Source: Candidatus Pacearchaeota archaeon (GTDB lineage Archaea > Nanobdellota > Nanobdellia > Pacearchaeales > GW2011-AR1). From it: 57,036 nucleotides of DNA. This document shows, one piece after another, positions 35,746 through 44,858 of the stretch. The notes beneath the pieces were generated by a model. That model saw only the letters and a list, made by a program, of their open reading frames with translations. It had not been told where the DNA came from and searched no databases. How positions within the stretch are numbered: position 1 is the first letter of the stretch; each line of letters opens with the position of its first letter. The stretch spans positions 1 through 57,036 of the forward strand of contig JAGVXG010000004.1 in the NCBI GenBank assembly GCA_018303885.1, in the 5' to 3' direction. The translations under genes and the position numbers were made by a program.

Positions 35746-37119
35746 ATGGATATAAGAGAAGAGGAATCTGATATAAGAGCTTTTTTTAGCAGATTAAAAA
35801 ATAGAGACTTTTCAGGAAATGTTGGAATTGCACTAAAAAACAGCATCTATCAATTTTCCACGACTCTTATAGGAAAAATAGGTGCTTTAATTCTTACAAT
35901 AGTTCTTGCTAGATTACTCATGCCAGAGATTTTTGGACTTTACAGTTTAGCATTATCTACGATTATTATTTTTGTCGCATTTTCTGACTTAGGTATAGGA
36001 GATACTTTAGTTAGGTTTGTTTCAAAAGAGCTAGGAAAAAGAAACATAGCAAAAGCAAAGGCTTACTCAGAATATCTAATAAAAATAAAGGTTTTTATAA
36101 TGCTGGCTGTTTCTTTAATTTTAATACTTTCTGCTAAATTTATCTCTGAAAATTATTATCATAAGCCCCTAACCTTTGCTTTAATGGCAGGAAGTCTTTA
36201 CATTCTTTTTGGAGGCGGAGTTGTTATCCTCCAAGCCCTTTTGCAAGCGCATAATTTTTTTAAACCAATTCTTTACAGAGAAGCTATTTTCCAGATACTT
36301 AGAATAATAATTATCCCTATTTTTGTTCTTCTTTCAATAAAAAATCTTAGCCCGGAATTTTTGGTGTCAGCAATAATTCTAATTCTTTCATTATCTTTTG
36401 CTATTTCAGTTCTGTTACTCTATGTTTTTTCTAAAAAGACCATATTTGTAGGTACGTTGAGAACTCCGAAAAAAACACTTTCAAAAAAAGATAAAACCAA
36501 TGTAAAAAAATTTGTTTTATTAAATTCTACAATAATTCTTTCTGGAATATTTTTTGGTTATATAGACATTGTAATGCTAGGATATTTTGTTTCTTCAGAG
36601 TATATTGGGTATTACCAAGGCGCATTTAGCTTTATTAATGCAGCAATTTCTCTCATAACTTTTTCTGGAGCCCTTCTTCCGATTTTTAGCAGGCTTAACA
36701 AAGGAAAAATGAACACTTTTTTAGAAAAAACAACAAAAGTAGTTTCTTTAGTGTCAATAATTTTATTTTTATTTATTTTCTTTGCTGCAGAACCTTTAAT
36801 TCTTACCATTTTTGGACAGGAATACGCTTCTTCAATAAACATTCTCAGAATACTTTCTTTGCTTCTTCTTTCTATACCAATAACAACCATTTATTCAACT
36901 TACTTTCTTTCTTCCGGCAAACCAGGAGTTGTATCTAAATTTTTGGTAATTTCCACAATAATAAATATAATTTTAAATTACCTTTTAATTTCATATTTTA
37001 TCTCGCATAGTTCTTTATATGCTACTTACGGCGCGGCAGCCGCCACGATAATTAGCCGATATTCTTTTATGATTTTTCTTATGGTTTATAGAAGAAGAAA
37101 TATAAAGAAGAAAAATTAA
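35746..37119 (+). CDS. Wzx/MOP-type oligosaccharide flippase
   Basis: LARLLMPEIFGLY, DLGIG, IDIVMLG, GYYQ.A, GAAAAT; about 12 TMs. Confidence 0.88.
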   Translation: MDIREEESDIRAFFSRLKNRDFSGNVGIALKNSIYQFSTTLIGKIGALILTIVLARLLMPEIFGLYSLALSTIIIFVAFSDLGIGDTLVRFVSKELGKRNIAKAKAYSEYLIKIKVFIMLAVSLILILSAKFISENYYHKPLTFALMAGSLYILFGGGVVILQALLQAHNFFKPILYREAIFQILRIIIIPIFVLLSIKNLSPEFLVSAIILILSLSFAISVLLLYVFSKKTIFVGTLRTPKKTLSKKDKTNVKKFVLLNSTIILSGIFFGYIDIVMLGYFVSSEYIGYYQGAFSFINAAISLITFSGALLPIFSRLNKGKMNTFLEKTTKVVSLVSIILFLFIFFAAEPLILTIFGQEYASSINILRILSLLLLSIPITTIYSTYFLSSGKPGVVSKFLVISTIINIILNYLLISYFISHSSLYATYGAAAATIISRYSFMIFLMVYRRRNIKKKN

Positions 37120-37625
37120 AGCCCAATAAAATCAATAATTTTTTTAACTGCCTCTTCTGGCTTTTGTTTTACTGAATCAATTTCTATTTCCGAATTTGTT
37201 GGAGGTTCATAAGGAACATGTAGCCCAATAAAATTTTCAAGTTCACCTGCTTCAGCTCTTGTATAAAGTCCCTTGACATCTCTTTTTTTACATTCATTAT
37301 AAGAACAGTTTATATAAATTTCAACAAATTCTTTCCCAAAATTTTTTCTAGCTTCTTCACGTGATTCTCTAAATGGAGAAATTATTGGAACCATAATATA
37401 GTCTACTTTATCAATAACTTTCTTGCATAATTCAATAATAAGCCTATTATTCTCTTTTATATCTCCAGGAGTAAATCCAAGATGCCTATGCAACTCTCGC
37501 CTGACATCATCACCATCAAAAACCTGATAACTTTTCCCTAATTTATCAAACTCTTTTTTTAATAATTCAGTAATAGTTGTTTTTCCACTTCCAGATAAAC
37601 CCGTAAACCATAAAACTCTACCCAT
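37116..37625 (-). CDS. cysC: Adenylyl-sulfate (APS) kinase
   Basis: WFTGLSGSGKTT, DGD.VR, LGF, ISPFR, KRDVKGLY, YEPP. Confidence 0.92.
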   Translation of the reverse strand: MGRVLWFTGLSGSGKTTITELLKKEFDKLGKSYQVFDGDDVRRELHRHLGFTPGDIKENNRLIIELCKKVIDKVDYIMVPIISPFRESREEARKNFGKEFVEIYINCSYNECKKRDVKGLYTRAEAGELENFIGLHVPYEPPTNSEIEIDSVKQKPEEAVKKIIDFIGL

Positions 37626-37626
37626 A

Positions 37627-39840
37627 TTATTCTACAAAAACCCTTTCGCCATTTTTAATTTTATCTAGAATAAATCTTGAAATTTCTGGTCTCATAAACC
37701 ATTCTGGAGGCTCTTTTCCTTTTTGAAACAACTCTCTTGCTTGTGTTCCCGACAAGTGCAGTTTATTTTCATCTGGATGATCAATGAAATCAAGATCATG
37801 GATATACCTTTCTTCTAATTCTGAATAAAAAACCTCTCCAAATTTAATTGGTTCTATCCCTAATTCTTCTTTTGTAAATTTATCGAATATTTCATGAGAA
37901 GCATTTTTTGAATAGAAATCTCCAACACCAGTATGATCTCTACCAATTATAAAATGACTGCAGCCAAAATTCTTCCTTACAATTGCAGTAAATAAAGCTT
38001 CTCTAGGCCCAGCATACCTGGAGTAATTTGCAAATGTTCCCATCAATACCTTAGATTTTGGATAAAATTCTTCCATCATTTTTTCATAAGATTCAATTAT
38101 TATTTCAGACTCAAAATCTCCAGACTTTTTCTTTCCTATTATAGGATGAACAAATAGCCCATCACACAGCCCTCTTTTTAACCCCTCAAGCTGTATAAAT
38201 TCATGACTTTTATGTATCACGTTTCTAGTATGAAATCCGACAACTTTGCTCCATCCTCTTTCGGAAAATATTCTTCTTGTTTGTTTTGGAGTTAGTTCAT
38301 GAATTTTGTATTTTGATGGCTTTCTTTTTAATAAAGTTATTTTACCACCTAAAAAATAATCTCCTAAGCCCATAAATCTCTTAACACCAGGATGTTCTAT
38401 GCTTAATGTTCCAAAAATCTTTTGTACTTCTTCATTTTTATCAACCTTATAAAATTCACTAAGATGTAAAATGCCATAACCTTCTCCACCATAAGTTAAC
38501 AAAACATTTTCCCCCTCTGAAAGTTCTTTTCTTTTATCCTCCCCAATAGTTAAAACAATTGGGAGCGGCCAAATTACTTCACTAGTTAATCTACACTTAT
38601 CAGCTACAGACCTAAAGTCTTCTTTTCCCAAAAATCCTTCTAGTGGACTAAAAGCTCCTACCCCAATTTGTTCTATGTCCATAAGAGTCTCTTCATCAAT
38701 TTCTACACTTTTTTTTGGCAAGTCCTCAGTGTAGTTAGAAACATATCGGTCTATCAGTTTACCTCCATGGGGTTTGACCAACAACTCTGGCGTTTCATGA
38801 GAGTAAATATAATTTGTATTTTCTAAGCTTTCTAAAAAACTGCCACTCTTTCCTTTTTGAATAAACTCGATTTGAGAAATTAAATTTGACAACATGTTTA
38901 CGGTTTCAACAGGATATTTCCCAACAGCAGTTTCTTTAGTCAAAGCAATACCTGTGGCACCATCCAAAATTGTATTTATAATATCATTGACTTCTGCTTT
39001 GTTGGGTTTTAAAGAAAAAGCCATCTGTTCAAGCGTATTTGTAGCAACAAAAGCATCTTTTCCCAGATCTCTCATTTTTTTTAATATAAATTTCTGGATA
39101 AAAGGGATTTTTTCAAGTTGAACCTGGCTTCCTAAATCCCCCCTATCAATTAATATTCCATTAGAAACCTTTGCTATTTCCATAAAATTCTCTAATCCTT
39201 TCTTTGACTCTATTTTTGAATAGATTACCGCTTCAGGATAAAGTTGTTTAAATTTCAATATACTCTCTGGAGACTCCATAAAAGATAGTGTAAAATGTTT
39301 TATGCCATATTTCTTAGCTAAATTAACTGCTAAATGATCTTTTTTACTAAAAGGGGGAAGATTAAATGTAGGGCTTTCAATTTGAACGGCCTTTTTACCA
39401 CCAATTCTTCCACCAATCACAACTTTACATTCTATAAACCCGTTGTTTAATTTACTGTCATCAAAAACCCTTAATAAAACAGAATTAAATTCTAAGGAAA
39501 TTAAATCGCCATCTTTTAACTTAGATATTATCCCTAATGGCTTAAAAAACAGATTAAATGAGTCACAGACTACCTTTTTTGCATGTATTTTTACAACACC
39601 CCCTTCAAAGAAATCAATTTCGGAAGTATTACCTGTTCTTACCTGAGACCCCTCAGTATCTAAAATTATTGGCACATCGTATCCCAATAAACCCCTTATT
39701 TTTTCTTCTATTTCCTCATCTTCAGTATGAGAAAGGTTTATTCTAAAAAAATCAGCTCCCCTATCTTTAAGTTTCAATAAGATATCCTCTTTAAATGAGC
39801 TTGGTCCAATAGTACAGATAATTTTGATTTTATTTATCAT
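37627..39840 (-). CDS. Pyruvate kinase-like domain fused to sulfate adenylyltransferase (Sat)
   Basis: N-half (about 38880-39840): KIICTIGP, RINLSH, SKIES, RGDLG, AT, ETAVGKYP. C-half (37627-38780): PHGGKL, FSPLEGF, FHTRNVIHKSH, YAGPREA, GRDHTGVG. Confidence 0.9.
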   Translation of the reverse strand: MINKIKIICTIGPSSFKEDILLKLKDRGADFFRINLSHTEDEEIEEKIRGLLGYDVPIILDTEGSQVRTGNTSEIDFFEGGVVKIHAKKVVCDSFNLFFKPLGIISKLKDGDLISLEFNSVLLRVFDDSKLNNGFIECKVVIGGRIGGKKAVQIESPTFNLPPFSKKDHLAVNLAKKYGIKHFTLSFMESPESILKFKQLYPEAVIYSKIESKKGLENFMEIAKVSNGILIDRGDLGSQVQLEKIPFIQKFILKKMRDLGKDAFVATNTLEQMAFSLKPNKAEVNDIINTILDGATGIALTKETAVGKYPVETVNMLSNLISQIEFIQKGKSGSFLESLENTNYIYSHETPELLVKPHGGKLIDRYVSNYTEDLPKKSVEIDEETLMDIEQIGVGAFSPLEGFLGKEDFRSVADKCRLTSEVIWPLPIVLTIGEDKRKELSEGENVLLTYGGEGYGILHLSEFYKVDKNEEVQKIFGTLSIEHPGVKRFMGLGDYFLGGKITLLKRKPSKYKIHELTPKQTRRIFSERGWSKVVGFHTRNVIHKSHEFIQLEGLKRGLCDGLFVHPIIGKKKSGDFESEIIIESYEKMMEEFYPKSKVLMGTFANYSRYAGPREALFTAIVRKNFGCSHFIIGRDHTGVGDFYSKNASHEIFDKFTKEELGIEPIKFGEVFYSELEERYIHDLDFIDHPDENKLHLSGTQARELFQKGKEPPEWFMRPEISRFILDKIKNGERVFVE

Positions 39841-39938
39841 ATCCTTTAATCACCATAATAACTTTTAAAGATTATGTAATTCTAATCTGAATCCTTTAGC
39901 CTCGATAAATTTAAAAGTACAATGATTTGGTTTATCTA

Positions 39939-40712
39939 ATGGATAAAGTACTATGGATATTCTTACATCCTCCTAGAACAGGCGGGAATACTATAATTGA
40001 AACCTTATTAAAAAAATTTCCAAGAGAAGAGATATTTATGGCATCTCTTGCAAGGTATAAGTTAGATACGGAAGAATTTAAGCCTAAAAAAGTAAGATTT
40101 ATGCTTGGACATGCAACTTATTATGGCATTCATAAACTTGTTCCGGATAAGGAGCCGAGGTACTTTATAGTATTAAGAGATCCTGCTGAAAGATTGATTT
40201 CCCATTATAATGCAAAAATGGAAAAAGAGATGAAAAAAATATCTTTTGATGCGTGGTATAAGAATCAGATAAAAAACGAAATGGTTCATGTTCTTGATTT
40301 GAAGCTTAAAGGAAGCCCATCAACAAGGATACATACTCCAAGTATTTTCTTGCCTATTATTAGAAAACTGAACTATAAGGCTTTTTATTTCATTCAAGCC
40401 TTTATCTTTAATCTTTTAAGACTTAATAAGAAGAATGATTACAGAAAACTAGAAAATGCAAAAAAACTTCTAGATTTATGCTGGTTTGTCGCTATTTTAG
40501 AAAAAAGTGACAAAGATTTCAAATTTTTGCTTAAAGCCATGGGCATAAAAAATCCTAAATGGGTTGACGATGGTGTTAGCAAGAAGATAGTGAAAATCGA
40601 TGAAAAGCTTAGGCAAAAAATATACAAAGAAAACCCGCTTGATGTTCAGCTCTATAAGTATGCTTTAAAAGTCAGAGAAGAAAAGCTTAAGTTAATAAAG
40701 AAATCTAAGTAG
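39939..40712 (+). CDS. PAPS-dependent sulfotransferase (Sulfotransfer_2-like)
   Basis: FLHPPRTGG 5'-PSB loop and LRDPAERLISHY 3'-PB motif; start at ATG 39939 with TATA about 21 nt upstream. Confidence 0.8.
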   Translation: MDKVLWIFLHPPRTGGNTIIETLLKKFPREEIFMASLARYKLDTEEFKPKKVRFMLGHATYYGIHKLVPDKEPRYFIVLRDPAERLISHYNAKMEKEMKKISFDAWYKNQIKNEMVHVLDLKLKGSPSTRIHTPSIFLPIIRKLNYKAFYFIQAFIFNLLRLNKKNDYRKLENAKKLLDLCWFVAILEKSDKDFKFLLKAMGIKNPKWVDDGVSKKIVKIDEKLRQKIYKENPLDVQLYKYALKVREEKLKLIKKSK

Positions 40713-41163: not shown

Positions 41164-41880
41164 TTATGCTGTATTACTGAAGCCTTCAAGTTTTTTTAAT
41201 ATATCTTCAGCATGATTTAGCTCTTTTTTGTCATTAACTGTTAGCCAGATTCCATCGTGATGAAAACTATGTAACATTTTTTCACCAATTATCTTTCGAA
41301 AGGCATTTTCTTCTATATTCCCTCCGACAAGAAAATCCTTTATTTTTTTATTAAAAACATAAAAGCCGGCATTCATTCTTTTATCATGAACTTCCCCTTT
41401 CTCTTTGAATTCAACTACCTTCCCAAAATCATCTGTATGGACAATCCCAAAATTAGTTCTAAGATTTACAGTCGCTATAGTGGCTATTGCATTTCCAGCA
41501 ATATGCGCCTTTTCAAAATCATCAAGTGATAGGTCTGTTACTTGGTCTCCATTCATCGCATAGAAATTTTCATCTTCAATGTTTGCCTGCTCTAATAACG
41601 CCTTAAATGCATCTTCAGTTCCGCCGGCTTCATCGTGCTCTGTATAAGTTATTTCAACCCCAAAATCTTCACCATCTGAAAAATAATTTTTTATCATCTC
41701 TTTTTTGTAAGCAGTGCCTATAATAACTCTTTTAACCCCGCTTTTGACCAGCCATTCGATTATTCTCTCGAGAATTGGTTTGTCATTTATAGGAATTAAT
41801 GGTTTAGGCAGATCCTCTGTACGTTCTTCAAATCTTTTACCCCGGCCTCCTGCAATAATTATTGCTGTTTTTAGAACCAT
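41164..41880 (-). CDS. Sugar-phosphate nucleotidyltransferase
   Basis: IIAGGRGKR, PKPLIPI, MNGD, F.EK, NAGFYVF. Confidence 0.9.
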   Translation of the reverse strand: MVLKTAIIIAGGRGKRFEERTEDLPKPLIPINDKPILERIIEWLVKSGVKRVIIGTAYKKEMIKNYFSDGEDFGVEITYTEHDEAGGTEDAFKALLEQANIEDENFYAMNGDQVTDLSLDDFEKAHIAGNAIATIATVNLRTNFGIVHTDDFGKVVEFKEKGEVHDKRMNAGFYVFNKKIKDFLVGGNIEENAFRKIIGEKMLHSFHHDGIWLTVNDKKELNHAEDILKKLEGFSNTA

Positions 41881-41956: not shown

Positions 41957-42547
41957 TCAAAGCAGGGGAATTGCCCTATCCATCCCAAACCGAACATAGG
42001 GATGTAATTCTTCACCAAGTCCATTTCCATACATTTCATGTGTTACAACTAATGGTTTTTCGTGTAACCTATCTAAATTTAGTTCACCATCAGCCTCACA
42101 ATAATATAACAATCCCGTGTCGTCTATTCCCAAGGGAAGACCTTTCTCTTGAGGATTAGAGTGGGGAGTTGTATTCCAGATAGCCCTTATAAATCCAAGA
42201 TAAACTAAACTATTTTCATTTACATCTAAGCCGCTTTCGGCCTTAATTCTTGATACAAGAGATTTTGATGTTGGGACTCCTCGGTCTATATATCCTCCAA
42301 GAGGCCATAAATAACCTTTTGCTGGTTCAGCTTTTCTTCTAACCAAAATAATGCCTTTTTTGCCTTCTTCATTATGATATGCAACTAATGCATCATGACA
42401 ACTTCTAACTAATACTTGTCTTCCATCTGAATAAACAGCTTCTCCCCTCCCCCTATACCTCAATGTTTCTAAATCAGTTCCACCCTCTACAGAATCTATA
42501 ATGAAAGGGTTTGTTACAGTTTTATATTCTCTAACTGAATCTGCCAT
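41957..42547 (-). CDS. Nudix-like hydrolase, GDP-sugar hydrolase-like, degenerate Nudix box
   Basis: RRKAEPAKGYLWPLGG ... RIKAESGL. Confidence 0.6.
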   Translation of the reverse strand: MADSVREYKTVTNPFIIDSVEGGTDLETLRYRGRGEAVYSDGRQVLVRSCHDALVAYHNEEGKKGIILVRRKAEPAKGYLWPLGGYIDRGVPTSKSLVSRIKAESGLDVNENSLVYLGFIRAIWNTTPHSNPQEKGLPLGIDDTGLLYYCEADGELNLDRLHEKPLVVTHEMYGNGLGEELHPYVRFGMDRAIPLL

Positions 42548-42644
42548 GTTTTTTCTATCTTTTACTCATTTAAAAAGATTATGAAACTCTATTATGCATT
42601 TTTATTACAACAATCTTATTAAAGACGTTTTTTTCATTAGTCAG

Positions 42645-43694
42645 ATGGAATTGAACAGAAAAAGGGTTCTTATTACTGGCATAACAGGTTTTATCGGAGC
42701 AGAGTTAGCTCATAAACTATTGGAACAAGGTTATGAGGTTTTCGGTTTTATTCAGCCAGTTATCGGAAGAGACTTAAGCTGTTTAGAAGATATTAGAGAT
42801 AAAATAAAGCTTTTGATATGTGATATTAAAGATTACTTTTCTGTTAGAAACTCAATAAAAAAAATAGAACCAGATGTGGTTTTTCATTTGGCTGCTCTTT
42901 CTCCAGTTAGATTAAGTTTTGAGCATCCTTTTGAATATCAGGATTCTAATTTTGTTGGCACAGTTAATATAGCAGAATCTCTAAGAGAACTCTATGGACC
43001 AGATAAAGTAAGACTTATTGCGGCATCAACAGCAGAAGTTTATGGAATCCAAGAAAAAAACGAGCCTTTCGTTGAAGCTTTAAGATTGGAGCCTTCAAGT
43101 CCCTATGCAGTTTCAAAAGCTTCTTTGGATATGTATCTTAGAATGATTCATACTGTCTACAATTTTAACGTCGTGATATTAAGGAATTCCAATACCTTTG
43201 GAAGAAAATATGATCCAAGCTTTTTTACAGAGTATCTCATAACAGAGATGCTTAATGGAAAAGATATCTATATTGGAGCACCGGATTCAATCAGGGATTA
43301 CATGTATGTCGATGACCATGTAAGTTCTTATTTGCTTGCAATGAAAACTCCTGAAGCAAGAGGGCAGGTATTCAACATTGCTGGAGGCAAAGGTTATACA
43401 AATAAAGAGTGGACATTAAAAATTGCAGAAATTTTAGGTTTTCCTTTGGGAAAAATCCATTTTGGGCAATATCCTCCTAATTATCCAAATAGGCCACTTC
43501 CTTCAGACCAACCATATCTTGTTCTTGATTCTACAAGAGCTAGGACAGTGCTTGGATGGTCGCAAAAAATCCCTCCAGAGGAAGGATTGAGAAAAACTGC
43601 AGAATATTGGAGAAATAAGTATCTTAAAGAACAGAAAATAGGCATCTCTGAGCAAAAATTAGATAAAATCAAAGAAATTATTGATTCTGAATAA
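42645..43694 (+). CDS. NDP-sugar 4,6-dehydratase/reductase (GMD/RMD-like extended SDR)
   Basis: TGITGFIG, FHLAALS, ASTAEVYG, PSSPYAVSK, RDYMYV; start at ATG 42645. Confidence 0.88.
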   Translation: MELNRKRVLITGITGFIGAELAHKLLEQGYEVFGFIQPVIGRDLSCLEDIRDKIKLLICDIKDYFSVRNSIKKIEPDVVFHLAALSPVRLSFEHPFEYQDSNFVGTVNIAESLRELYGPDKVRLIAASTAEVYGIQEKNEPFVEALRLEPSSPYAVSKASLDMYLRMIHTVYNFNVVILRNSNTFGRKYDPSFFTEYLITEMLNGKDIYIGAPDSIRDYMYVDDHVSSYLLAMKTPEARGQVFNIAGGKGYTNKEWTLKIAEILGFPLGKIHFGQYPPNYPNRPLPSDQPYLVLDSTRARTVLGWSQKIPPEEGLRKTAEYWRNKYLKEQKIGISEQKLDKIKEIIDSE

Positions 43695-43703
43695 AATAAT
43701 AAA

Positions 43704-43758
43704 AATGAAAGCAAATAGGAAATTTTCATTCATTCGCCATAAGAGGTATGTCAAATGA
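43704..43758 (+). repeat. Dispersed copy of the 50-bp unit (mini-ORF MKANRKFSFIRHKRYVK*)
   Basis: 50/55 identical to 24052-24106; its TGA overlaps the ATG at 43755. Confidence 0.88.
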
Positions 43759-44858
43759 AAGTAGCAATGGTTTTTCCAACAAGAGAATCCGAGAAAGCTA
43801 TTTCAGGATACGCAACGACTCTTGTTGAAAACATAAAAAAAACAAAAGTTGATATAGAAAATTTCACTTATGTTTCCGGACATCCAAAAACTCTTTTTAA
43901 TCGACTAAAAGCGTTAAAAAAATATGAAGTTATTCATATACAACATGAATATAATCTTTTAGGAAATTATGGGTTGCCATTCTTTCTTTTATATTTTTTG
44001 CTTTTCTTTTCCGAAGCTAAGATAATAACAACGATGCACACCATTCTTTCTCAAAAAGAAAGGTTTCCTGGCAGTAGCCGCCTAAAAACTTCCCTTAGAA
44101 AAATACTTTATTTGATACAAAACCGCTGGATAAATTGGTTTTCAGATATAATCGTTGTGCATACTAGTTTCTTAAAGGAAACGCTATCCAAAGAGTACCA
44201 TGTTAAAAAAAATAAAATAGTCGTTTTTCCTCAAGGGATTATTGAAAATGCACCACAATACAACAAAAAAAAGATAAAAAAAGAACTAAAGCTCTTCGGC
44301 AATGTCTATCTTTTTATGGGAAGCATGGTCCCAGACCATGGACATGATATAATTATAAGACAAGCAGATAAAATAGGCAAGACAATTCTTGTTGTAGCAA
44401 ATTCCGGTTCAGTTAATGATAGGAACAGTGATAGAACAAGAACGTATTTAGAAGAAAACAGGAAAATTGTCCAACAGAAAGGTTTTGAGAAATTTGTAAG
44501 ATTTGATATAAGCGAAAGCATAACAGATAAAAATCCCCTTTGGTGGAAATATTTTTCTGCAGCAGACTTAATTCTTTTGTCATATAGGGTAGGACATGGA
44601 AGCGGGATATTTGCGCATGCTATGGCTGCAAAAAGACCGGTAATTGGAAGTAATGTGCCCTTCTTTAATGAAATCTCAAAAAACTATGGATGTGTTTTTA
44701 TTGCAAAAAACGATCAAGATTACCCAAAAGTAATTAAGGAAGCAATGAAACCTAAAAACCATAATAAAATGACTAAAGAATGCGAACGATATCTTAAAGA
44801 ATACGGACTTTCAAGCCTTGCACTTAAATATAAAAAACTTTATTATTCTTTAAAATGA
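43755..44858 (+). CDS. GT4-family glycosyltransferase
   Basis: IHIQHEY, TTMH, ADLILLSY...GSG...AMA..RPVI.S. Confidence 0.85.
   Translation: MKVAMVFPTRESEKAISGYATTLVENIKKTKVDIENFTYVSGHPKTLFNRLKALKKYEVIHIQHEYNLLGNYGLPFFLLYFLLFFSEAKIITTMHTILSQKERFPGSSRLKTSLRKILYLIQNRWINWFSDIIVVHTSFLKETLSKEYHVKKNKIVVFPQGIIENAPQYNKKKIKKELKLFGNVYLFMGSMVPDHGHDIIIRQADKIGKTILVVANSGSVNDRNSDRTRTYLEENRKIVQQKGFEKFVRFDISESITDKNPLWWKYFSAADLILLSYRVGHGSGIFAHAMAAKRPVIGSNVPFFNEISKNYGCVFIAKNDQDYPKVIKEAMKPKNHNKMTKECERYLKEYGLSSLALKYKKLYYSLK

What the first reader, a model, noticed from the sequence alone, without database searches (positions are those of the whole stretch)
37627..39840. Pyruvate kinase fused to ATP sulfurylase in one 737-aa ORF
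Seen: one uninterrupted ORF joining a PK barrel plus B domain to a complete Sat. The PK part keeps the R of RINLSH, K/E of SKIES, RGD and the T of AT, and lacks the allosteric C domain; Sat keeps HxxH and GRDH. cysC starts 1 nt after its stop. Established: ATP sulfurylase is thermodynamically unfavourable, and APS kinase releases ADP. Inference: the PK domain recycles that ADP to ATP at the site of use, giving a self-recharging PAPS factory in an energy-poor symbiont. The usual DTKGPE reads DTEGSQ and ATQML reads ATNTL, so altered cation dependence or different chemistry is possible. I know of no described PK-Sat fusion, but could not search.
Basis: partly seen in the sequence, partly recalled or inferred. 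Interest (0 to 1): 0.85.

Follow-up and report, generated by a model that had tools for sequence, protein, structure and literature searches.

The report
Pyruvate-kinase module fused to ATP sulfurylase
A tiny archaeon encodes one protein that joins a trimmed pyruvate kinase to the enzyme that activates sulfate; the design is real, widespread in uncultured microbes and one cultured rhizobium, apparently unstudied, and most likely uses phosphoenolpyruvate to keep ATP high and ADP low while the sulfate donor PAPS is made for sulfating surface sugars.

Summary
Window 37627-39840(-) is one 737-aa ORF: PK barrel plus B domain (no C domain), PUA_2 and ATP sulfurylase. cysC follows after TAA plus 1 nt. 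A sulfotransferase lies divergently upstream, inside a glycan locus.

It is not unique. About 200 clusters at 90% identity share the architecture, in DPANN archaea, CPR bacteria, Acidobacteriota, Planctomycetota, Proteobacteria and cultured Mesorhizobium amorphae. Some are triple fusions with CysC.

Both halves are distinct, co-occurring subfamilies. The PK-like clade reads DTEGxQ, DRGDLS and ATNxLE, with all catalytic residues invariant. The Sat type reads HTRN and GRDHTG instead of QTRNP and GRDHAG.

When unfused, the same PK-like gene sits beside H-type Sat, CysC, sulfotransferases and an NPP-type pyrophosphatase. All 11 stand-alone members examined were in sulfation loci.

Best reading (about 0.6): PEP-driven ATP regeneration and ADP removal for APS kinase. 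This mirrors the laboratory PAPS recipe.

Unexplained: three relatives keep the PK-like gene next to a sulfotransferase but have neither Sat nor CysC.

I found no paper on the fusion.

The parts
37627..39840 (-). 737-aa fusion ORF: PK-like barrel plus B domain, linker, PUA_2, ATP sulfurylase
   Evidence: AF2 pLDDT 91.1 and pTM 0.86; Foldseek matches each half to its own family
38899..39834 (-). PK-like domain (aa 3-314), without a C domain; belongs to the DTEGxQ subfamily. Catalytic residues present: R33, N35, S37, H38, D61, T62, R68, K150, K209, E211, D235, T267, E303
   Evidence: Pfam PF00224, 188 bits; genome hit; conservation tables; clade with SH-aLRT 99
38779..38898 (-). Inter-domain linker, aa 315-354 (helices 310-328 and 335-341, pLDDT about 75)
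   Evidence: the same junction is present in the 120 listed homologues
38323..38778 (-). PUA_2 domain of ATP sulfurylase (aa 355-506)
   Evidence: PF14306, 151 bits
37666..38295 (-). ATP-sulfurylase catalytic domain (aa 516-725), H-type: FHTRNVIHKSH (536-546) and GRDHTG (633-638)
   Evidence: PF01747, 254 bits; motif statistics; closest structure 8a8d/8a8g, TM 0.93
37116..37625 (-). cysC (APS kinase, 169 aa), starting 1 nt after the fusion's TAA stop
   Evidence: PF01583, 162 bits; junction sequence; fused in frame in a same-genus genome
39927..40712 (+). Divergently transcribed sulfotransferase (261 aa, HPPRTGGNT loop)
   Evidence: Sulfotransfer_2, 34.9 bits against a cut-off of 22
35746..37119 (+). 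Wzx-type polysaccharide flippase, convergent with cysC
   Evidence: Polysacc_synt, 94 bits
34997..35692 (+). SAM-dependent methyltransferase of the glycan locus
   Evidence: Methyltransf_23/25/11
41164..41880 (-). Sugar-1-phosphate nucleotidyltransferase of the glycan locus
   Evidence: NTP_transferase, 115 bits
42594..44858 (+). NDP-sugar dehydratase/epimerase (42594-43694) and GT4 glycosyltransferase (43755-44858)
   Evidence: GDP_Man_Dehyd 204 bits; Glyco_transf_4 and Glycos_transf_1

Best explanation
The ORF is a two-enzyme polypeptide belonging to a PAPS-making module that supplies a glycan sulfotransferase.

Shown: domain identities, conserved catalytic residues, gene order, recurrence of the fusion, and clade structure.

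Inferred:
- The Sat half makes APS from ATP and sulfate.
- The translationally adjacent CysC converts APS plus ATP into PAPS plus ADP.
- The N-terminal PK-like domain transfers phosphate from PEP to that ADP. PEP would come from the genome's intact enolase.
- This regenerates ATP at the site of use. It also keeps ADP low, so that APS kinase is not trapped in its dead-end E-ADP-APS complex.

The C domain of glycolytic PKs (allostery and tetramerisation) is replaced by the Sat body. The PK-like domain belongs to a dedicated, sulfation-associated PK subfamily that co-occurs with an H-type Sat. In this reduced genome it is also the only PK, so it may serve glycolysis as well.
For: 1. All PK phosphotransfer, metal, PEP and nucleotide-phosphate residues are about 100% conserved across 178 fused, 18 triple-fused and 33 stand-alone members.
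2. The same clade (SH-aLRT 99, separate from canonical PKs) is fused to Sat, to Sat plus CysC, to CysC alone, and to the NPP-type PPase. Fused and free forms interleave, with at least 17 forced changes of state.
3. All 4 unfused H-type Sat genes examined have a PK-like gene close by. It lies directly upstream in 3 and just downstream, fused to Phosphodiest, in the fourth. CysC follows Sat in 2 of the 4.
4. All 11 stand-alone PK-like genes examined lie among sulfation genes.
5. In the window's order, Sat occurs only fused to this PK. That holds for 6 of 6 Sat-bearing genomes among the 20 PK-bearing genomes searched. cysC is fused or adjacent in 4 of those 6.
6. Five of 6 bacteria with the fusion also keep a canonical PK, so there the fused one is a dedicated paralogue.
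7. In vitro, human PAPSS1 made almost no PAPS without a PK/PEP system. The stated reason is the dead-end E-ADP-APS complex (PMC9885120).
8. The genome has an intact enolase, so PEP is available.
Against: - No activity has been measured for any member.
- Family-wide changes next to the active site could mean altered cation use or a different acceptor: K to E and E to Q in DTKGPE, Q to N in ATQML, SG to T/A-K/A in SGETA.
- Three relatives (G055, G143, G027) keep the PK-like gene next to a sulfotransferase with intact PAPS-binding motifs, yet have no Sat and no CysC. A PK-CysC fusion sits by a sulfotransferase with no Sat within 5 kb. Plain recycling of CysC's ADP does not explain these cases.
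- PK does not remove PPi, which is the real thermodynamic brake on Sat. This genome shows no family I PPase, no NPP-type PPase and no CysQ (the genome is only 85% complete).
- The commonest fusion partner is Sat, not the ADP producer CysC.
Confidence: 0.6

Rival explanations
1. The PK-like domain is mainly the cell's ordinary glycolytic pyruvate kinase. It became attached to Sat by chance or for co-expression, and the fusion has no kinetic meaning.
For: It is the only PK domain in this 720-kb genome, which also has enolase. The same holds in a CPR genome. DPANN relatives that lost Sat and CysC keep the stand-alone form as their sole PK.
Against: Five of 6 bacteria with the fusion also have a canonical PK. 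The clade is tied to sulfation genes in every context examined, 11 of 11 stand-alone cases. Fusion to Sat, CysC or PPase recurs many times across the tree. The genome has a PPDK that could carry the PEP-to-pyruvate step.
Confidence: 0.15
2. The PK-like subfamily has changed chemistry. It would use PEP to phosphorylate something other than ADP, such as a sulfonucleotide or its breakdown product (PAP, APS, AMP). Alternatively it may work with the remodelled His/Thr sulfate pocket of the H-type Sat in a reaction that is not the textbook one.
For: Subfamily-specific substitutions flank the nucleotide and K+ site. There are co-occurring changes at two motif positions of Sat. From memory, these bind sulfate. 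They read HTRN in 159 of 160 and GRDHTG in 149 of 163 fused members, against QTRN in 63 of 63 and GRDHAG in 62 of 64 unfused Sats. The PK-like gene persists beside PAPS-type sulfotransferases in genomes without Sat or CysC.
Against: Every residue that contacts PEP, Mg2+, K+ and the nucleotide phosphates in canonical PK is retained. CysC co-occurs in most loci, so no replacement for it is needed. The T300/K301 variation is not uniform: K in 51% and A in 44% of fused members.
Confidence: 0.12
3. The PK-like domain is a non-catalytic scaffold or a PEP or energy-charge sensor that regulates Sat, as the APS-kinase-like domain does in fungal ATP sulfurylase.
For: The allosteric C domain is missing. 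Some relatives instead carry CBS domains (P0146). A high pTM suggests a fixed inter-domain arrangement.
Against: The full catalytic set is invariant across hundreds of diverged sequences down to about 35% identity. That is not expected for a purely regulatory module.
Confidence: 0.05
4. The fusion is an assembly misjoin or a sequencing error that removed a stop between two genes.
Against: The same architecture, with a co-linear linker, occurs in all 120 listed homologues from independent projects, including contigs longer than 800 kb and an isolate genome.
Confidence: 0.01

Closest known systems
Bifunctional PAPS synthases (Sat-CysC on one chain: Aquifex aeolicus 2gks, human PAPSS1/2)
   Same: Sulfate-activation enzymes joined on one polypeptide to couple consecutive steps. 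The Sat half matches 2gks at 225 bits. Relatives of this ORF, including one in the same genus, do carry CysC in frame.
   Different: Here the extra module is a pyruvate-kinase barrel at the N terminus. No characterised PAPS synthase has one. In this window CysC is a separate, abutting gene.
Canonical pyruvate kinase (E. coli PykF, G. stearothermophilus and S. aureus PK, PKM2)
   Same: A-domain barrel plus B-domain lid. All catalytic, metal and PEP ligands are present. Scores are 145-160 bits to solved PKs, and Foldseek aligns about 357 columns at 3.2-3.5 A.
   Different: No C domain, so none of the known allosteric site or tetramer interface. Motifs are DTEGxQ, DRGDLS, ATNxLE and T/A-K/A-ETA. 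It forms a separate clade. Its genomic context is sulfation, not glycolysis.
Archaeal sulfate-activation cluster of Thermococcus onnurineus / Pyrococcus yayanosii (Sat, APS kinase, NPP-type pyrophosphatase, DHH pAp phosphatase)
   Same: A set of helper enzymes is encoded with Sat and CysC to pull the pathway and recycle by-products (PMC8268124). The same PF01663 enzyme sits directly upstream of, or fused to, the PK-like gene in relatives.
   Different: That cluster has no PK. This window's genome has neither the NPP-type PPase nor a CysQ.
Laboratory multi-enzyme PAPS synthesis with PK/PEP ATP regeneration
   Same: The same components and logic: Sat, APS kinase, PPase and pyruvate kinase. PK removes inhibitory ADP and restores ATP (PMC9885120).
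   Different: That is an engineered mixture of unrelated enzymes using a canonical muscle PK. Here it is a natural, genetically fused and specialised PK lineage.
ATP sulfurylase of Methanothermococcus thermolithotrophicus (8a8d/8a8g)
   Same: The closest solved structure to the Sat half: 337 bits, 42-43% identity, TM 0.93, 2.1 A.
   Different: It is stand-alone, and it has QTRNV and GRDHAG where this family has HTRNV and GRDHTG.

Membership tests
Pyruvate kinase (EC 2.7.1.40; Pfam PK + PK_C) | Barrel (A) domain with inserted B domain matching PF00224 above the gathering score | tested here: met
   188 bits against a cut-off of 30, profile positions 2-328 of 328; beta-rich segment 67-154 in the model
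Pyruvate kinase (EC 2.7.1.40; Pfam PK + PK_C) | C-terminal alpha/beta domain (PK_C) carrying the allosteric site and tetramer interface | tested here: not met
   No PK_C hit. PUA_2 begins 40 residues after the barrel.
Pyruvate kinase (EC 2.7.1.40; Pfam PK + PK_C) | Catalytic, metal and substrate ligands (R, N, S of RxNxSH; D-T; R of xRT; lid K; K-x-E; RGD Asp; AT Thr; ET Glu) | tested here: met
   R33, N35, S37, H38, D61, T62, R68, K150, K209, E211, D235, T267 and E303 are present and 84-100% (mostly 94-100%) conserved in the family. Equivalence to the canonical motifs comes from the alignments.
Pyruvate kinase (EC 2.7.1.40; Pfam PK + PK_C) | Canonical signature motifs DTKGPE, ATQML and SGETA | tested here: not met
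   They read DTEGSQ, ATNTL and TKETA, and these variants are family-wide.
Pyruvate kinase (EC 2.7.1.40; Pfam PK + PK_C) | PEP + ADP to pyruvate + ATP activity | not testable with these tools
   Needs an enzyme assay
ATP sulfurylase, Sat type (PUA_2 + PF01747) | PUA_2 and ATP-sulfurylase domains above cut-off, with the Sat fold | tested here: met
   151 and 254 bits; TM 0.93 to 8a8g
ATP sulfurylase, Sat type (PUA_2 + PF01747) | HxxH and GRDH nucleotidyl-transfer motifs | tested here: met
   H543-K-S-H546 and G633-R-D-H636
ATP sulfurylase, Sat type (PUA_2 + PF01747) | QxRN Gln and GRDHAG Ala (from memory, these line the sulfate pocket) | tested here: not met
   They read H537-TRN and GRDH-T637-G. 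This H/T type is found in 159 of 160 and 149 of 163 fused members. Unfused Sats read QTRN in 63 of 63 and GRDHAG in 62 of 64.
Bifunctional PAPS synthase (Sat and APS kinase on one chain) | APS kinase domain in the same polypeptide as Sat | tested here: not met
   A TAA stop plus 1 nt separates them here. The feature is met in the same-genus genome G086 (908-aa ORF in locus L091) and in 18 of the 120 listed homologues.
Sulfation-associated C-domain-less PK-like subfamily (defined here) | Signature D-[TS]-E-G-[SA]-Q, DRGDLS, A-T-N-x-L-E; placement in the SH-aLRT 99 clade; sulfation gene neighbourhood | tested here: met
   Neighbours are cysC and a sulfotransferase.

The most novel reading that the evidence does not exclude
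The PK-like clade and the H-type (His/Thr pocket) Sat are a co-evolved, PEP-driven sulfate-activation machine whose chemistry goes beyond ADP recycling. For example, the PK-like site might act on a 3'-phosphorylated adenylate or another sulfonucleotide intermediate. That would explain why the PK-like gene stays glued to PAPS-type sulfotransferases even in genomes that have lost Sat and CysC.
Probability: 0.12. Interest if true: 0.85.

Novelty: new variant of a known kind. Interest (0 to 1): 0.6.

Why it matters
PAPS synthesis is costly and self-inhibiting. Sat is strongly unfavourable, and APS kinase is trapped by ADP plus APS. A natural enzyme family that hard-wires a PEP-driven ATP regenerator onto the pathway would have several consequences:
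- It would be a new solution to that problem.
- It would give a defined physiological role to a large, mis-annotated group of 'pyruvate kinases' and 'sulfate adenylyltransferases'. These currently distort metabolic reconstructions of DPANN and CPR genomes, where the only 'PK' may not be a glycolytic enzyme.
- It would offer a ready-made biocatalyst for PAPS supply in enzymatic sulfation.
- It would point to sulfated surface glycans as a widespread trait of ultrasmall archaea and bacteria.

The orthologue in cultured Mesorhizobium amorphae NBRC 102496 makes this directly testable.

Tried and rejected
- **Inter-domain geometry.** AF2 coordinates are not exposed, so the distance between the two active sites could not be measured. 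Only pLDDT, pTM and fold matches were used.
- **Binning by length.** My first 'canonical' bin was wrong. P0146, P0150 and P0192 (478-503 aa) belong to the DTEGxQ subfamily with CBS or unknown C-terminal extensions.
- **G015.** Its 336-aa stand-alone PK (L087) is a long-branch sequence outside the subfamily, so I dropped it from the context count.
- **Fourth component in this genome.** I looked for the NPP-type PPase, a CysQ and a family I PPase in the window's genome and found none. The assembly is 85% complete, so absence is not proven.
- **Enolase.** I suspected a pseudogene because of the '1 TAA' flag. The stop is the natural end of an intact ORF of about 385 aa.
- **L096.** I tried to search the 885-kb contig behind L096 for Sat. 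The record is not held.
- **Literature.** Six full-text searches found no description of the fusion. Subscription-only papers are not covered.
Full report
**Observation**

Window 37627..39840(-) is one uninterrupted 737-aa ORF. Pfam places a pyruvate-kinase barrel, covering the whole profile and therefore the B-domain lid, at aa 3-314 (188 bits). PUA_2 lies at 355-506 and ATP-sulfurylase at 516-725. No PK_C domain is found. The downstream junction reads GTA GAA TAA T ATG, so cysC (37116..37625, APS_kinase 162 bits) starts after a 1-nt spacer.

Divergently upstream lies a Sulfotransfer_2 protein (39927..40712). The surroundings are a glycan locus: a Wzx flippase, a methyltransferase, a sugar nucleotidyltransferase, an NDP-sugar dehydratase and GT4 enzymes.

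AlphaFold2, run with a 28-sequence alignment, gives a confident single model (pLDDT 91.1, pTM 0.86). Foldseek matches the C-terminal half to the M. thermolithotrophicus ATP sulfurylase 8a8g (TM 0.93, 2.1 A). It matches the N-terminal half to PKM2 and PykF barrels. No solved entry spans both halves.

**Is it an artefact, and is it rare?**

Neither. A full-length search returned 120 listed clusters (90% identity) that all carry PF00224, PF14306 and PF01747. Eighteen also carry APS_kinase, at about 905-950 aa. They come from many independent assemblies. Sources label them Pacearchaeota, Nanoarchaeota, Omnitrophota, Gammaproteobacteria and Negativicutes, and name them either 'sulfate adenylyltransferase' or 'pyruvate kinase'.

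In species-representative genomes, full-length matches occur in Woesearchaeota, Acidobacteriota, Rhodospirillales, Methylococcaceae, Staskawiczbacteria (CPR), Pirellulales, Planctomycetaceae, Verrucomicrobiota and Longimicrobiales. They also occur in the cultured Mesorhizobium amorphae NBRC 102496. There the 726-aa fusion is again followed directly by cysC and lies 2 kb downstream of a Wzy-type gene.

The recurrence of the junction in independent data makes a misjoin very unlikely.

**The organism**

The window's genome is 720 kb in 17 contigs and about 85% complete. The nearest named homologues are from Pacearchaeota and Nanoarchaeota MAGs. The fused PK is its only PK domain. It has an intact enolase and a 912-aa PPDK. 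I found no NPP-type PPase, no CysQ-type phosphatase and no family I PPase.

**The PK half is a distinct subfamily**

I searched the PK part alone against 1.84 billion representatives. The top 150 clusters (50% identity) broke down as follows:

| Architecture | Clusters |
|---|---|
| PK+PUA_2+Sat | 69 |
| PK only, mostly stand-alone forms of about 300-376 aa | 60 |
| PK+PUA_2 | 12 |
| PK+PUA_2+Sat+CysC | 3 |
| PK+Sat | 2 |
| PK+CysC | 2 |
| PK+PUA_2+PUA_2 | 1 |
| PK+PK | 1 |

Canonical 470-aa PKs appear only at about 180 bits and 35% identity.

Across 178 fused, 18 triple-fused, 2 PK-CysC and 33 stand-alone members, the catalytic set is essentially invariant: R33, N35, S37, H38, D61, T62, R68, K150, K209, E211, D235, T267 and E303. 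The whole group shares D-[TS]-E-G-[SA]-Q, DRGDLS, A-T-N-x-L-E and [TA]-[KA]-E-T-A. Canonical PKs have DTKGPE, ARGDLG, ATQML and SGETA at those positions.

In a maximum-likelihood tree the group forms a clade (SH-aLRT 99) apart from canonical PKs. Fused and free forms interleave, and well-supported branches alone force at least 17 changes of state.

Other fusion partners of the clade are a CBS domain and a type I phosphodiesterase/nucleotide pyrophosphatase domain. The latter occurs as Phosphodiest+PK (786 aa) and as Phosphodiest+PK+PUA_2+Sat (1151 aa).

**The Sat half is also a variant, and the two co-occur**

Fused proteins read HTRN[VAI] (159 of 160) and GRDHTG (149 of 163). Unfused Sats from 64 named genomes read QTRN (63 of 63) and GRDHAG (62 of 64). 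From my memory of yeast Sat structures, these two positions line the sulfate pocket. I did not test that here.

Unfused H-type Sats exist, in about 30 clusters. All four that I looked up have a PK-like gene close by. In three, the order is Phosphodiest, PK (344-347 aa), then Sat, and CysC follows in two of those. In the fourth, a Phosphodiest-PK fusion lies just downstream of Sat.

PMC8268124 describes the same PF01663 enzyme in the Pyrococcus and Thermococcus sulfate-activation cluster. It assigns the enzyme to PPi removal, citing Lee et al. 2009.

**Context of stand-alone PK-like genes**

I sampled four more by a fixed rule: PK-only Pfam assignment, 320-360 aa, longest contigs. All lie among sulfation genes:
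- L096: three sulfotransferases plus an Inositol_P gene.
- L097: sulfotransferase, then PK, then Sat.
- L098: CysC, then PK.
- L099: sulfotransferases, a TauE permease and CysC.

Adding the DPANN cases and the three unfused H-type Sat loci whose PK-like gene stands alone, 11 of 11 stand-alone members examined are in sulfation loci.

In the window's order only 22 of 151 genomes have any PK domain. Among the 20 PK-bearing genomes that I searched for Sat, it occurs only fused to this PK (6 of 6 Sat-bearing genomes). cysC is fused or adjacent in 4 of those 6.

Five of six bacteria with the fusion also keep a canonical PK of 488-538 aa, so there the fused domain is an extra, dedicated paralogue. 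Only a 0.7-Mb CPR genome resembles the window in having no other PK.

**Mechanism**

The best reading is PEP-driven ATP regeneration and ADP clearance for PAPS synthesis. Sat makes APS. CysC uses ATP and releases ADP. The PK-like domain converts that ADP back to ATP with PEP.

The biochemical need is documented. With human PAPSS1 in vitro, PAPS was 'practically missing' without a PK/PEP system and rose markedly with it. The reason given is that APS kinase forms a dead-end E-ADP-APS complex (PMC9885120). The recurrent gene set PPase + PK + Sat + CysC is the natural counterpart of that laboratory recipe. Fusions of the PK-like domain to CysC alone pair the ADP producer directly with the proposed ADP consumer.

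All of this is inference from sequence and context. No member has been assayed.

In this genome, PPDK could consume the PPi from Sat and AMP together with PEP. That is speculation, prompted by the apparent lack of a PPase.

**What does not fit**

Three relatives (G055, G143, G027; 88-95% complete) keep a stand-alone PK-like gene divergently next to a sulfotransferase. Those sulfotransferases have intact PAPS-binding loops. Yet the genomes have no Sat and no CysC anywhere. In the tree these PK-like genes are the window's nearest relatives after the same-genus triple fusion. A PK-CysC fusion also sits by a sulfotransferase with no Sat within 5 kb.

Three explanations are possible:
- These symbionts obtain APS or PAPS from a host.
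- The PK-like enzyme is retained as the sole glycolytic PK.
- It does something more than recycle ADP.

This puzzle, together with the family-wide changes around the nucleotide and K+ site and the co-varying Sat pocket, keeps a changed-chemistry reading alive at roughly 0.1.

**Fusion and fission within the genus**

A same-genus genome reads ...NGERVFVE-VKNKI-LWFTGLSGSGKT... as one 908-aa chain. The window reads ...NGERVFVE-TAA-T-ATG-GRV-LWFTG.... The split and triple-fused states differ by a few substitutions and one base, with essentially no linker in either.

**Novelty**

Six full-text searches found no paper on a PK-Sat fusion or on this PK-like lineage. The proteins are in public databases under generic names. 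Earlier notes of this scan report the same family in other genomes, with the same leading hypothesis. I treated those as leads and re-derived the points independently.

I class it as a new variant of a known kind: a PAPS-synthesising multi-enzyme with a built-in PEP-driven ATP regenerator. It is real and widespread, but biochemically untested.

Noticed in passing
L084 4231-6978; L085 5200-7059; L086 2339-4872 (genomes G055, G143, G027): A stand-alone PK-like gene of the same subfamily lies divergently next to a Sulfotransfer_1/3 gene with intact PAPS-binding motifs, in genomes that have no ATP sulfurylase and no APS kinase. The source of PAPS is unknown.
   Followed up: partly
L090 5959-9252 (G049); also G039, G103, G081, G091, G119, G076: PK barrels of about 221-236 aa that lack the B-domain lid (Pfam PK positions 2-54 plus 177-328) occur in 7 genomes of the order. 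In G049 one lies directly next to an 865-aa ORF whose N-terminus looks like a pyruvate phosphate dikinase (not Pfam-checked).
   Followed up: no
L084 5627-5914: A 95-aa PQ-loop/SemiSWEET-type membrane protein sits between the sulfotransferase and the stand-alone PK-like gene.
   Followed up: no
window 37620-37632 versus L091 (G086): Within one genus, cysC is either a separate gene (TAA + T + ATG) or fused in frame (…VFVEVKNKILWFTG…). This looks like a recent fusion or fission event.
   Followed up: yes
G000 whole genome (C7 13827-14819 for PPDK): The genome has a 912-aa PPDK and an enolase, but no detectable family I pyrophosphatase, NPP-type PPase or CysQ. PPDK might be the sink for PPi and AMP from sulfate activation (speculative; the genome is 85% complete).
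   Followed up: partly
L095 11829-14549: A 906-aa B12-binding radical SAM protein with Pfam hits to Intein_splicing and (faintly) a LAGLIDADG endonuclease domain, in a glycan locus next to a Phosphodiest-PK-Sat operon.
   Followed up: no
L097 6348-7169: A 273-aa ATP-sulfurylase gene with no PUA_2 hit on record lies downstream of a stand-alone PK-like gene and a sulfotransferase.
   Followed up: no
L098 1731-4080: Two genes with no Pfam hit on record (345 and 416 aa) follow CysC and PK-like in a marine (TARA) contig. They may be unrecognised pathway members.
   Followed up: no
window 41957-42547 (-): A 196-aa ORF inside the glycan locus with no Pfam match at E <= 0.001.
   Followed up: no
G063 (C24 2054-4222): A genome with the PK-Sat fusion (759-aa open frame) in which no convincing APS kinase was found. 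The only hit was a 22-bit P-loop match (genome 93% complete).
   Followed up: no
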